Assembly (NCBI GenBank): GCA_043778225.1
Contig: JAYWGM010000084.1
Coordinates: 1-16,414 of the forward strand
DNA length: 16,414 nucleotides
Reading direction: 5' to 3'
Source of the DNA: Deinococcales bacterium
Lineage (GTDB): Bacteria > Deinococcota > Deinococci > Deinococcales > JAAFIG01
Position numbers: made by a program. Shown in pieces: positions 12,001-16,414 of this stretch (positions are counted from its first letter, which is position 1; the number at the start of each line of letters is the position of its first letter).

Positions 12001-15000
12001 GATACCCCAAGCGCTGCCCTCGAGAATGCCGTTTTGGAAGCCGAACGCGACTGATTAACATATTTTGGTATGACTCGAGCTTTTTGATTGCAAATGCGCT
12101 ACAATGTCAGCCATGTCCAAATGCAAGGCTCAACAATTTGTCTCGAGTAGGCATTTTTTGTGTGCTGGTCATCTCAATCAACACCCAGATTGCGAAGTTT
12201 TTTTTTACACCCCAATCACCTAACCTCGAGAAAAGCGACCGTCAAATTTGGCTTATTCGCCCTTTTTCTTTGGAGGTTTTTATGTACGACCCTAAACCCG
12301 AACATCACTTTACTTTTGGACTCTGGACAGTTGGCAATATCGGGCGCGACCCGTTTGGCAACCCGACCCGCAGCCCGCTTTCTGCGCCGTATATTGTCCA
12401 TAAACTCGCCGAGCTTGGTGCGTATGGCGTAAATCTGCACGACAACGATTTGATTCCTATTGATGCCACGGCTGGCGAACGTGATCAGCTTTTGCGTGAT
12501 TTCAAAAAAGCCTTGGCAGATACTGGCATGAAAGTTCCGATGGCAACCACCAACTTATTTGGCGACCCCGCCTTTAAGGATGGGGCTTTTACCAATGCCA
12601 ATGCCCAAATTCGTGGTTATGCGATTCAAAAAGCGATGCAGAGCATGGATTTGGGGGCAGAACTGGGCGCAGAAACCTATGTCTTTTGGGGTGGACGCGA
12701 AGGCGCAGAAGTGGACGCTGGCGGCAATACCTTGAATGCTTTAGCCTATATGCGCGAAGCCATGAATTTTTTAGCCGAGTACAGCCAAGACCAAAAGTAT
12801 GGTTTTAAGTTTGCGATCGAACCCAAGCCCAACGAACCTCGAGGCGATATTTACTTTCCTGTGGTTGGTGCGGCGCTGGCATTTATTTACACGCTCGACC
12901 AACCCGATTTGTTTGGCTTAAACCCCGAAGTTGCCCACGAAACGATGGCTGGCTTAAATTTTGTTCATGCCGTAGCCCAAGCCATAGATGCAAAAAAACT
13001 TTTTCATATTGACCTCAACGACCAAAAAATGGGGCGCTTTGACCAAGACTTGCGCTTTGGTGCAGAAAACATCAAACAAGCCTTTTTGCTGGTCAAATTA
13101 CTCGAGGATACTGGCTACGCTGGCATGAAGCACTTTGATGCTCACGCCCTGCGAACCGAGGACGAAGCTGGCGTTTGGGAATTTGCCAAAGGCTGTATGA
13201 GAACCTATTTGATTTTGTCCGAGAAAGTCAAACAATTTAATAGCAATACCGAAATTCAAGCCTTACTCGAGTATTACCACCTCAAAGACCCGACAGTCTC
13301 GAGCTTGACTGCCAAGTACAGCCCAGACAATGCGGCTGCCCTGAAAGCCCACAGCTTTGACCGTGTAGCGCTTGGCGCTCGTGGACCCGGACTCGAGAAA
13401 ATTGACCAACTGACGATGGAACTCTTGATGGGTATTGGCTAAACTTCTACTTCTGCTCGAGCCATTGTTCTTGTATACTGGCTCGAGTTTTTTATGAACA
13501 TTTTTTCTTTGATGCGCGAACCAATCAACACCATCACTCATGGAATCGGGGCTGTCATGGCACTCGTTTTTACCATTCTGATGGTGGTGCTGTCTGGTGG
13601 GCAGTGGGTTTTTGGCGTTTTTGGTATCAGCATGGTGATTTGTTATACCGCCAGCACCTTGCATCATGGAGTGCGTTCGAGTGCCACAATCGAAGAAGGC
13701 TTACGCCGTTTTGACCACAGCGCTATTTATTTGCTGATTGCTGGAACATACACCCCAATTCTGTGGAATGTTCTCGAGGGACAAGCCCGTCTGTACTGGC
13801 TGCTAGGAGTCTGGGGCATGGCTGGACTGGGCATCGTCTTAAAAACTTTTTCAAGACCTCCAGAGTGGCTTTCCTTGTCTATTTATGTTGGCATGGGCTG
13901 GTTAGCGGTGCTGCTCTTGCCTAAATTTATTTCTGGTTTATCGTTGGCGGCACTGGTTGCCCTCGTGATTGGTGGACTGTGTTATACCTTTGGCGTACCA
14001 TTTTATGCGCTCGGCACTCGAGTCTTAAAAAAGGGTTTATGGACATCGCACGAAATCTGGCATTTATTTGTCTTGGCTGGCAGCATAAGCCATTTTGTGA
14101 TGGCAATCAATCTTTAATTTTTGGATGGGTGCTGTTGCGTCCAGCATTTTTTGCGGCATACAAAGCCCGGTCTGCAATTTCAAACAACTTATCTTGATGT
14201 TCAAACGATGTATCATCACACCAGCCAAGGCTAATGGTGACTTTTAAGTCTGGATCAATATCGGTGAAATCCAGCAAAGCAATGACCTCACGGATTCGTT
14301 CACACAAACGGTAGACCGCCACACCACCAATCCCCGGCAACACCAAAGCAAATTCCTCGCCACCATAACGAGCCACCAAATCATGTTCTCGGCAATGATT
14401 GTGCAGAATTTTAGCAATGCGTTGCAAAACTTGATCGCCTGAAGCGTGCAAATATTTATCGTTGACCAACTTAAAATGATCAATATCCAATAAAACAACA
14501 CTGAATTTGGTACGTGCTTCTCGAGCTTCGGCAAAGACTCGAGCCACAAAAGTTTCTAAAGTCCGACGGTTGGCAAGACCAGTTAAGGCATCCTCGCTGG
14601 CTTGACGATCCAATTGGGCATTTAAGTGGGTTAATTCTTCAGAACGCTGTTGATACCAAATGGTTTCGCGGCGAATGTTTTCGCGTTCGATTTTGACGGC
14701 TAAAGCCTGTGCTTGACGTTCGGCGCTCTCGGTACGCACCAAAGAATCAAATCTATAAAACAGTTCAAAATGCTCCAAAGCCTGTTCAAATTCTCTACGC
14801 GCCCGAAAGACCTTATAAAACTCTTTATGCACCTCGGACAAAAGTTTCTTAGCAGTATTAACCTCAAAATGCGCTCGAGCTTGGGTGAGACACTTTAATG
14901 CAACCTCAAACTGACGTTGCGACGCAAAAACCCGTCCAAACTGCAATTCGCACTCACCAAGCGACTCGAGCGAACCATAGCGTGTTGCATGAACTGTCGC

Positions 15001-16414
15001 CTGTTTAACTGCCTCTTCAGCAACATCAAAGCGCTCGAGACCACACATGATTTTAGACTTAATGGTGTAGGCATCAACAAGTAAAGCCTGATCATCCGCC
15101 CGAATTAAATAGGTTAGTGCCAAATCCAAATGCTTGAGCGCAATGTGTAAGTCGTCAGGTTGAAATCCTGCACCCTTGTCTTCGATAAGCACATTCGCTA
15201 GTGCCATCAGCGCACCACCTTCGGCTCGAGTTCGTCCCATTTTGCGTGCCAAAGTAATGGCTTGGTGAGCATAATCAATCGCAATGCTCCAGCCCTTCAA
15301 ATGCCGATGCGTTTGACTCAGATAAATCAGGCTGGCTAGTCGCCCACCTTCATTTTGATGGGTTGCAGCTAACTCAAGCGTATCTTCAAAAATCTGAAGG
15401 GCATCGGAATAATCTCCGAGATCTAAATAAAGCGTCCCAATTTCTACTTGACAGGCTATTGCCATTGCAAAAGCCTCAGACAAACAATACAAATCAAAGG
15501 ATTTAAAGTAATTTTCCAGAGCTTGCTTAATTTCAGATTTTCGCAAATGAACTTTGGCGATCCAGCGTAGTCCAAAAGCACGCATGGTATGTTGATTTTC
15601 ACTTGCAGCAATGAGTAACTGTGTACCTAACTCCAATTGAGTCTCAGCAGAACTTTCTATAAATTCAATGTAAACCGCACTAAAGACAGCAGGCATTTCC
15701 TCAGCAATAGAAACACGGCTGATTCGATTGACAGCGCTCTGGATATTTGGTTTCATAGTAAAGACCCAAACACAAGTCTGGATAATACCCTAAACTTGTC
15801 TCTGCCCTCTAACGACTAGCAGTCGCTTCCACAAAAACGTTTTGCCCCTGAAGGTGGCGATGTTGGTTTATCTTCTGGACTGGTGCTGGATTCGCTCGAG
15901 ACTTGATCAACTCCGCCAGCCGCAACTGTTGCTCCAAGAAGACAAAGTAATAGCCCCAACCCGATTATTAATTTCTTAATCATTTGAACCCCCGTTTGAT
16001 CACACAAAATGTACACAAACTGACCTTACAGCAGACTTACTGTAAGAATTTCGTAAGAATTAAATTGACCTGTCAATCACAAACTAAAAGCCTCTTTTGC
16101 GAAATGTGAAAAACCACACATTTATATCGAATACGTGTGAAAAAATTCATACTTTAGCCAAAATACAGACCTTGACAGCCCCCACAAAAACGCTATACTC
16201 GAGACAGCAACGACTGGGAAAGTACCGCGCCGCGCACCAACAGAGAAGTGTTCTCGAGGCTGAAAGGAACACTGGGAAAGGCAAACGCGAGAAAGTCACC
16301 CACGAGCATGAGGAAAGAACAGGTGGGCGGTCACACGCCCACACCAGTAGAATCCTCTGGGAGCGCCCATCACAGCGTAGCAAGAGCGCTCGACCAGTTT
16401 TTTAAGAACTCGGC

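What a model noticed while it worked through the whole genome (the two positions that open the first line are those of the whole stretch)
14107..15983. A peptide-paired TPR diguanylate cyclase: uncalled propeptide with a C-terminal CxxxC loop upstream of a TPR-GGDEF gene [...]
g03094 (TPR repeats + GGDEF) is preceded on the same strand by an uncalled 55-aa gene (C84:15816-15983) for a signal-peptide-bearing propeptide ending FCGSDC. Every homologous locus has such a propeptide with a variable middle and a terminal Cys pair, suggesting an exported, disulfide-looped peptide that signals to c-di-GMP synthesis.
Evidence so far: Found by the control scan of call 213; ORF and domains in calls 214, 234. 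Homologs in 6 family genomes of 4 genera; 6 of 6 loci carry an upstream propeptide ending CGEGC, CNGDC, CGGGNC, CTGEGC, CSGGNC, CGGNGC. Search 223 found no paper.
(Added by a program. Inside this text positions count along the whole contig: contig position 1 is position 1 of the stretch shown here. "Call 12" and the like, gene names such as g00115 and contig names such as C1 are that model's own, and its searches are not shown. The text may have been shortened before it was handed on; [...] marks where a part breaks off. The agent that wrote the report below was given it as the finding of a first reader that could run no searches.)

Follow-up and report, generated by a model that had tools for sequence, protein, structure and literature searches.

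The report
Secreted peptide paired with diguanylate cyclase
A tiny overlooked gene for an exported, cysteine-looped peptide always sits in front of a cytoplasmic enzyme that makes the biofilm signal c-di-GMP in a family of uncultured Deinococcus relatives, and the two swap between species as one cassette, which points to a peptide message wired straight to a second-messenger enzyme, though nothing has been tested in the laboratory.

Summary
Confirmed. The 55-codon gene (15816-15983, minus) has a ribosome site, a signal-peptide-like N-terminus and ends FCGSDC; 59 nt downstream lies a soluble TPR-coiled coil-GGDEF protein with intact active site. All 14 orthologous loci with upstream DNA (4 genera, one Deinococcales family) carry such a peptide ending C-x3/4-C-stop. 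New here: (1) between close species the last 14 peptide codons and the first ~100 TPR codons were exchanged as one block (51% versus 93% DNA identity), as in pherotype cassettes; (2) a TPR-HD-GYP phosphodiesterase clade has its own, Cys-free peptide; (3) both share a conserved CTTAC-N6-CTTAC site; (4) a TPR-winged-helix family with upstream peptides spans the order; (5) complex prediction gives only weak support (0.55 vs control 0.02). Best reading: an RRNPP-like export-reimport peptide that gates a one-component diguanylate cyclase. It is not an RRNPP member by architecture (C-terminal enzyme, 549 aa, Asn ladder largely lost). Export, disulfide, binding and sign of regulation are untested. 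The scan earlier noted a different peptide-TPR pair on another piece of this genome.

The parts
15816..15983 (-). Propeptide gene, 55 aa: signal-peptide-like residues 1-22 (cleavage near VAA|GG inferred by eye), variable linker, basic/hydrophobic pre-loop and C-terminal C-x3-C
   Evidence: 14 of 14 orthologous loci
15989..15993 (-). Ribosome binding site GGGGG, conserved in the genus
16025..16057 (.). Two back-to-back copies of a CTTAC-N6-CTTAC direct repeat (11-bp period), candidate operator of a winged-helix regulator
   Evidence: 2 found, 0.01 expected; exact in 12 of 14 Cys-peptide loci, 5 of 5 HD-GYP peptide loci, and before S8-TPR-GGDEF operons C35, C37
15767..15804 (-). Hairpin between peptide stop and cyclase start; in relatives often followed by a T run (partial terminator or translation gate, inferred)
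   Evidence: z -2.2 here; z at or below -1.9 in 12 of 14 loci
15457..15756 (-). N-terminal ~100 codons of the TPR domain: the allelic segment exchanged together with the peptide end; candidate specificity region
14788..15756 (-). TPR superhelix (about 8 helix pairs), cytoplasmic
   Evidence: (pLDDT 90.7); no 19-residue hydrophobic segment
14617..14787 (-). Long helix (coiled-coil signalling helix, residues ~323-379) linking TPR to GGDEF
   Evidence: secondary structure; conserved 74-97% among genus orthologues
14107..14616 (-). GGDEF domain with GGEEF active site, DIDHFK..ND metal motif and RxxD inhibitory site

Best explanation
A two-gene peptide-signalling cassette that works like RRNPP quorum sensing but has a diguanylate cyclase as its output. 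The propeptide is exported by Sec and cleaved (inferred), its two terminal cysteines are probably joined into a 5-6-residue ring by the DsbA/DsbB pair (inferred), the linker is trimmed, possibly by the secreted subtilases that share the same upstream site (inferred), the C-terminal piece is taken back up by an oligopeptide transporter (inferred) and binds the N-terminal TPRs of the cytoplasmic enzyme, which acts through the long helix on GGDEF dimer formation and so sets c-di-GMP (inferred; whether up or down is unknown). Peptide end and N-terminal TPRs form exchangeable alleles, i.e. pherotypes. Shown here: the genes, their linkage, the intact catalytic motifs, the absence of a membrane segment, the block exchange and the shared upstream site.
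For: 14 of 14 orthologous loci with upstream DNA carry the peptide; these enzymes form one clade, SH-aLRT 99 in a quick tree; 0 of 28 more distant TPR-GGDEF/HD/other loci showed a peptide ending in a Cys pair (2 had under 60 nt upstream). Block exchange: G003 vs G001 51.0% identity over 396 nt (last 14 peptide codons, spacer, first ~100 TPR codons) against 93.3% over 1334 nt, chi2 400 vs at most 20 in 100 permutations; same block for G005 vs G001; the S8-linked TPR-GGDEF of the same pair is 92-100% identical throughout. The N-terminal 102 columns fall into discrete types (77-84% and 69-83% within, 36-47% between), and two separate database proteins (P0002, P0003) carry the G001 type, so this is not one chimeric assembly. 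Of 10 intergenic signal-peptide mini-ORFs in the genome, 5 flank TPR genes, although only about 42 ORFs match TPR_12. Fold: peptide-binding TPR superhelices, LGN Z 28.1 (rmsd 4.7, 317 aligned), Rap/NprR Z 24-25. Complex prediction: weak support, score 0.55, best of 3 controls 0.02, runs agree in at least 53% of contacts, partner pLDDT at least 42; the mark was reached by 116 of 157 solved and 2 of 215 mismatched pairs, but at 0.60 or under by only 18 solved and both mismatches. DsbB and DsbA adjacent; 14 SBP_bac_5 proteins; MshEN c-di-GMP receptor domains present.
Against: No expression, export, binding or enzyme data. The block exchange is seen as one event type among close kin, not many independent ones. 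The window's loop (FCGSDC) is nearly that of G004 (YCGSDC) though their N-terminal TPRs are only 45% identical, so loop and receptor type do not map one to one. The Asn-rich groove seen in the S8-linked paralogues (11-18 Asn in residues 41-320) is largely lost in the window's protein (5 Asn). A disulfide would tend to be reduced in the cytoplasm (established knowledge). The closest solved folds are eukaryotic LGN, not RRNPP. The three other TPR-GGDEF genes of this genome pair with subtilase lipoproteins and have no peptide, which a pure pheromone model does not explain.
Confidence: 0.6

Rival explanations
1. Export monitor, not pheromone: the TPR domain binds the C-terminal tail of the precursor when it fails to leave the cytoplasm (or while its cysteines are reduced or metal-bound), so the cyclase reports on secretion or envelope/redox state of the same cell.
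For: It also fits the paralogues that pair with exported subtilase lipoproteins under the same upstream site and needs no re-import across two membranes; linkage, co-exchange and the weak complex score fit it equally.
Against: Discrete exchangeable alleles of ligand end plus sensor are expected from social specificity, less from a self-monitor; peptides are short with a disposable variable linker.
Confidence: 0.17
2. The peptide is a secreted signal read by another receptor (for example a membrane kinase of the regulator that binds the CTTAC repeat); the cyclase is merely a co-transcribed output.
For: The conserved 11-bp-period repeat lies directly upstream of the peptide gene, as in autoinducing loops; a disulfide ring is stable outside the cytoplasm.
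Against: No kinase or membrane receptor is a conserved neighbour; the exchanged block joins the peptide end to the cyclase's own TPRs; TPR proteins with other outputs have their own peptides.
Confidence: 0.13
3. A small secreted antagonist (microcin-like) with the TPR protein as a cognate sensor or immunity factor.
For: Fast, block-wise co-diversification also marks toxin-immunity pairs; small size and Cys pair.
Against: No transporter, modifying enzyme or bacteriocin family match; tails are Gly-rich and mostly polar; partner is a catalytically intact cyclase.
Confidence: 0.05
4. A leader peptide that only controls expression of the cyclase through the intergenic hairpin (Cys- or secretion-sensing attenuation).
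For: A hairpin, often with a T run, lies between the two genes in 12 of 14 loci; the last codon is Cys.
Against: Would not explain co-exchange with the TPR coding region, nor divergent peptide genes at HD-GYP loci; the spacer is 59 to over 300 nt.
Confidence: 0.05

Closest known systems
RRNPP(A) peptide quorum-sensing systems of Bacillota (Rap-Phr, NprR-NprX, PlcR-PapR, AimR-AimP; PMC9765709 introduction read, PMC10075063 passages read)
   Same: Small Sec-type propeptide gene next to a cytoplasmic TPR receptor; likely mature signal at the propeptide's C-terminus; TPR superhelix similar to Rap/NprR (Z 24-25); oligopeptide transporters present.
   Different: Effector is a C-terminal GGDEF enzyme, whereas RRNPPA effectors are N-terminal HTH or three-helix bundles; 549 aa exceeds the 250-500 aa criterion; phylum Deinococcota; terminal Cys pair; no RRNPP-specific profile match for this protein; neither paper mentions Deinococcus, and PMC10075063 does not mention diguanylate or c-di-GMP.
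Split borosin clusters with TPR-TM-GGDEF proteins (Shewanella oneidensis son cluster; bioRxiv 10.1101/2021.12.24.474128, passages read)
   Same: A TPR-containing diguanylate cyclase encoded with a small peptide gene; ligand role unproven.
   Different: There the cyclase spans the membrane and the peptide is an N-methylated RiPP with a methyltransferase; here the enzyme is soluble, the peptide has a signal sequence and no modifying enzyme is a neighbour.
Pherotype cassettes agrBDC and comQXP (recalled, not from a call)
   Same: Signal end and the receptor's sensing part lie in one hypervariable, exchangeable block; agr peptides are Cys-cyclised.
   Different: Those use membrane histidine kinases and dedicated maturases (thiolactone, prenylation); none is present here.
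Deinococcus TPR-GGDEF proteins such as D. radiodurans DR_2299 (PMC6895123, passages read)
   Same: TPR plus GGDEF architecture in the same phylum.
   Different: No ligand or adjacent peptide is mentioned in the passages read; most such paralogues examined here have no peptide or neighbour a subtilase.

Membership tests
RRNPP(A) | Small propeptide (10-100 aa) | tested here: met
   49-60 aa in 14 loci
RRNPP(A) | Sec signal peptide on the propeptide | tested here: inconclusive
   Basic N-end, hydrophobic core and small-residue cleavage region by a home-made rule, no lipobox; SignalP not available
RRNPP(A) | Receptor and propeptide genes adjacent | tested here: met
   14 of 14 loci with upstream DNA
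RRNPP(A) | Cytoplasmic receptor with 5-9 TPRs forming a superhelix | tested here: met
   Pfam TPR, model with 16 helices before the long helix, no hydrophobic segment
RRNPP(A) | Receptor length 250-500 aa | tested here: not met
   549 aa; criterion from PMC10075063
RRNPP(A) | N-terminal HTH or three-helix-bundle effector, TPRs C-terminal | tested here: not met
   TPRs are N-terminal, effector is a C-terminal GGDEF; architecture from PMC9765709
RRNPP(A) | Common descent with Rap/NprR/PlcR TPR domains | tested here: inconclusive
   NprR E 3.4e-15 and Rap E 1.6e-10 by profile, but LGN scores higher (E 1.8e-37); same order by structure
RRNPP(A) | Mature peptide re-imported and bound by the receptor | not testable with these tools
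   Only a weak complex prediction and presence of SBP_bac_5 proteins
Active diguanylate cyclase (GGDEF) | GG(D/E)EF site and DxDxFKxxND metal motif | tested here: met
   14 of 14 full-length orthologues; RxxD site in 7 of 14, including the window's
Active diguanylate cyclase (GGDEF) | Makes c-di-GMP from GTP | not testable with these tools
   needs assay
Borosin-linked TPR-TM-GGDEF | Membrane-spanning cyclase with adjacent peptide N-methyltransferase | tested here: not met
   No hydrophobic segment; no methyltransferase among the neighbours listed for six loci or in the window
Disulfide-cyclised peptide | Two invariant Cys in an exported peptide of a DsbA/DsbB-bearing host | tested here: inconclusive
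   Cys pair in 14 of 14, DsbA and DsbB present; bond itself not testable

The most novel reading that the evidence does not exclude
A one-component peptide-pheromone-gated diguanylate cyclase: a re-imported disulfide-ringed peptide directly switches c-di-GMP synthesis, comes in exchangeable pherotypes, and in one genus is opposed by a second peptide gating a TPR-HD-GYP phosphodiesterase under the same operator, all within an order-wide, undescribed set of peptide-TPR communication systems in a diderm phylum.
Probability: 0.45. Interest if true: 0.9.

Novelty: new variant of a known kind. Interest (0 to 1): 0.76.

Why it matters
Few diguanylate cyclases have a known input ligand, and the described intracellular peptide receptors are transcription factors or response-regulator inhibitors of Bacillota. 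A secreted peptide that directly gates c-di-GMP synthesis would join quorum sensing and the motile-sessile switch in one protein, extend cytoplasmic peptide signalling to Deinococcota, and give a ligand hypothesis for the many orphan TPR-GGDEF/HD-GYP proteins of that phylum. It is directly testable with a soluble enzyme and 8-15-residue synthetic peptides, and natural allele pairs give built-in specificity controls; a peptide-switchable cyclase would also be a useful synthetic-biology part.

Tried and rejected
Metagenome-contig scans with two alignments found no confirmed relative, so no further loci with context. No RNA holder was listed; no evidence either way on expression. ESM Atlas gave only unnamed hits under 0.8 for the peptide. 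The careful tree did not finish; the quick tree leaves the base of the 41-row group open, so the HD-GYP clade is not shown to be sister to the Cys-peptide clade. The idea that the peptide importer belongs to the CTTAC regulon rested on one mismatched site before an SBP_bac_5 gene; that gene had no close relative in 18 family genomes, so it was dropped. Genome-wide, the exact 17-nt repeat is barely enriched over its reversed control (58 vs 47 matches in 19 genomes; spacing 6 gives 10 sites against 0-8 for other spacings): the case for it is positional. No sigma-70-like promoter for the peptide operon was found. Rejected: chance ORF, lipoprotein (no lipobox), RiPP with dedicated enzymes (none adjacent), single assembly chimera. 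Paper searches found no description of this pairing; the library lacks most subscription papers, and no supplements were read, so candidate tables of RRNPP_detector or borosin papers were not seen.
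Full report
Observation. The window is contig C84 of a 4.03-Mb, 89% complete genome; its closest named relatives are Deinococcales metagenome-assembled genomes. On the minus strand, 15816-15983 encodes 55 aa from an ATG with a GGGGG ribosome site; the product has a basic N-end, a hydrophobic core, a small-residue cleavage region, a Pro/Ser/acidic linker and ends KRFCGSDC-stop. It matches nothing in Pfam or NCBIfam and is not in the protein collection, while 4 of 7 orthologous Cys peptides and 1 of 1 HD-GYP-linked peptide looked up are there unnamed. Fifty-nine bases on, 14107-15756 encodes 549 aa: TPRs, a long helix (residues 323-379 of the model, mean pLDDT 90.7) and a GGDEF domain with GGEEF, the metal motif and an RxxD site, with no membrane segment.

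Conservation. A profile of the N-terminal part finds orthologues in 15 of 19 family genomes (13 of them built the profile, but the single-sequence search ranks the same loci near the top, interleaved with the HD-GYP group); it was not found in G002, G007, G008, G009 (74-94% complete). Fourteen of 14 loci with upstream DNA, from 4 genera, carry a same-strand 49-60-aa signal-peptide ORF ending C-x3-C or C-x4-C at the stop; G012's contig ends 209 nt upstream of the frame. Both Cys codons and the stop codon vary synonymously, the loop is Gly-rich, and 13 of 14 have a basic residue within seven positions before it. Only 0.29% of frames in this genome end so. These enzymes form one clade (SH-aLRT 99, quick tree). 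Among 28 more distant TPR-sensor loci none showed a peptide with a terminal Cys pair (two had almost no upstream DNA, and the filter missed one true peptide, L019, seen). Outside the family the best of 301 phylum genomes scored E 1.4e-63 (six candidates scored per genome); of those seven loci one (L131) has a divergent Cys-free signal-peptide ORF that its orthologue L133 does not show.

Evidence that peptide and TPR domain belong together. Between the close species G003 and G001 the locus is 93.3% identical over 1334 nt but 51.0% over one 396-nt block, from +135 to +530 of the peptide start: the last 14 peptide codons, the spacer and the first ~100 TPR codons (chi2 400, at most 20 in 100 permutations). 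G005 vs G001 gives the same block; G003 vs G005 does not. The subtilase-linked TPR-GGDEF of G003 and G001 is 92-100% identical in every window. Across ten proteins (seven distinct lineages plus three duplicates) the first 102 columns fall into three types, 77-84% and 69-83% identical within and 36-47% between, out of step with the rest of the protein; two separate database proteins carry the G001 type, which argues against one bad assembly. This is the pattern of pherotype cassettes such as agr and comQXP (recalled). Against a simple code: the window's loop and G004's are almost the same while their N-terminal types differ. A complex prediction of the TPR domain with the 33-residue mature peptide gave weak support: 0.55 against a best control of 0.02, runs agreeing in at least 53% of contacts, partner pLDDT at least 42; the mark was reached by 116 of 157 solved and 2 of 215 mismatched pairs, but at 0.60 or under by only 18 solved pairs and both mismatches, and no interface was given. 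The fold is closest to peptide-binding TPR superhelices, LGN first (Z 28.1, rmsd 4.7, 317 aligned), then Rap and NprR (Z 24-25) and MalT (Z 23); such Z values are not specific for repeats.

A wider system. A genome-wide scan for intergenic signal-peptide mini-ORFs with a ribosome site gave 10, and 5 flank TPR genes, against about 42 TPR_12-matching ORFs in the genome (150 of 250 candidates scored). Two belong to a TPR family with a C-terminal winged-helix-like part (assignment by eye; Pfam names only the TPRs) present in 18 of 19 family genomes; of 30 loci fetched out of 56 matches, 24 of the 26 with enough upstream DNA have a propeptide, ending either in a Cys pair (for example PKPCASC) or in a Gly tail (for example PKIGTGG). 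The family occurs in 86 of 221 phylum genomes, with peptides found at 15 of 29 loci fetched and named hits on Deinococcus and Allomeiothermus plasmids, one with an annotated 57-aa hypothetical gene in front. In genus g5 a TPR-HD-GYP clade with intact HD and GYP motifs has a divergent 39-40-aa Cys-free peptide at 5 of 5 loci with upstream DNA. So the Cys loop is a clade feature, seen in two different receptor families. The scan had noted a different peptide-TPR-wHTH-BTAD pair on another piece of this genome (e1-8132822) and similar logic in other phyla; these are unchecked notes.

Regulation. Two back-to-back CTTAC-N6-CTTAC repeats lie at 16025-16057 (2 found, 0.01 expected). The exact repeat precedes 12 of 14 Cys peptides, 5 of 5 HD-GYP peptides and two of this genome's three subtilase-TPR-GGDEF loci, the third having one mismatch. 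In g5, 10 of 15 exact genome-wide matches are at the two peptide-enzyme loci; other matches in the family precede subtilases, lipoproteins and type IV pilins. Genome-wide counts are little above the reversed control (58 vs 47), so the case is positional. An 11-bp period is typical of OmpR/PhoB and SARP winged-helix regulators (recalled). A hairpin, often with a T run, follows the peptide stop in 12 of 14 loci and could keep peptide message in excess (inference).

Mechanism. Most likely (0.6) the peptide is exported, oxidised by the adjacent DsbA/DsbB pair, trimmed, re-imported by one of 14 SBP_bac_5 systems and bound by the N-terminal TPRs, which act through the long helix on cyclase dimerisation; c-di-GMP could be read by MshEN domains. 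All of these steps are inferred; the sign is unknown. The window's TPR has few Asn (5 in residues 41-320 against 11-18 in the subtilase-linked paralogues) and an invariant Glu105, compatible with a looped, basic ligand but unlike the Asn ladder recalled for RRNPP. Rivals: an export or redox monitor that binds unexported precursor (0.17), a signal for another receptor (0.13), an antagonist-immunity pair (0.05), a leader peptide (0.05).

Comparison and novelty. It works like RRNPP but fails two defining features (length, N-terminal effector) taken from PMC10075063 (passages) and PMC9765709 (introduction and passages). Borosin clusters have TPR-membrane-GGDEF enzymes beside a modified peptide (bioRxiv 10.1101/2021.12.24.474128, passages; lead from e1-5256982 and e1-5203539), but differ in topology and peptide type. 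TPR-GGDEF proteins are noted in D. radiodurans without a ligand (PMC6895123, passages); bioRxiv 10.1101/2021.11.05.467447 has no occurrence of TPR or Deinococcus. Searches (listings and abstract starts only, apart from the papers named) showed no description of this pairing; subscription papers and supplements were not seen. Verdict: real, a new variant of a known kind, interest 0.76.

Noticed in passing
window 16172-16414 (+): Strong sigma-70-like promoter followed by a T-box leader with a Val (GUC) specifier (Rfam RF00230, E 3.3e-6, below the gathering score), conserved in five relatives where the T-box motif continues and valS lies a few genes on, behind NUDIX and other inserted genes. Unrelated to the peptide.
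   Followed up: partly
L095, L096, L097 (G000 C35, C37, C56); also L046, L052, L166: TPR-GGDEF, TPR-HD and other TPR sensors repeatedly pair with secreted S8 subtilase lipoproteins, several under the same CTTAC repeat; at least 6 of 11 S8 genes of this genome lie beside TPR genes. Unexplained.
   Followed up: partly
L088/L098 (G000 C27:12659-12826), L090/L122 (C80:14162-14296), L089 (C72:22331-22456), L087 (C21:7942-8082): Four more signal-peptide mini-genes beside TPR proteins in this genome, one ending in a second C-x3-C; the C27/C80 family with peptides spans the order.
   Followed up: partly
L017, L039-L042: TPR-HD-GYP genes with a divergent 39-40-aa Cys-free propeptide and the same upstream repeat.
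   Followed up: partly
L131: A TPR-GGDEF gene in another family with a divergent signal-peptide ORF, on a separate branch of the tree: possibly an independent gain.
   Followed up: no
L191, L214, L228: The CTTAC repeat lies upstream of type IV major pilin genes in genera g2 and g4.
   Followed up: no
window 6599-10024 (+): Ser/Thr kinase-AAA-TPR protein (1141 aa) followed by a 333-aa lipoprotein-like ORF with no Pfam match (10081-11082).
   Followed up: no
window 3121-5184 (-): S8 subtilase lipoprotein, not adjacent to a TPR gene.
   Followed up: no
window 12285-14117 (+): Xylose isomerase-like gene and a haemolysin-III-family membrane protein converge on the cyclase; same order in G003.
   Followed up: no
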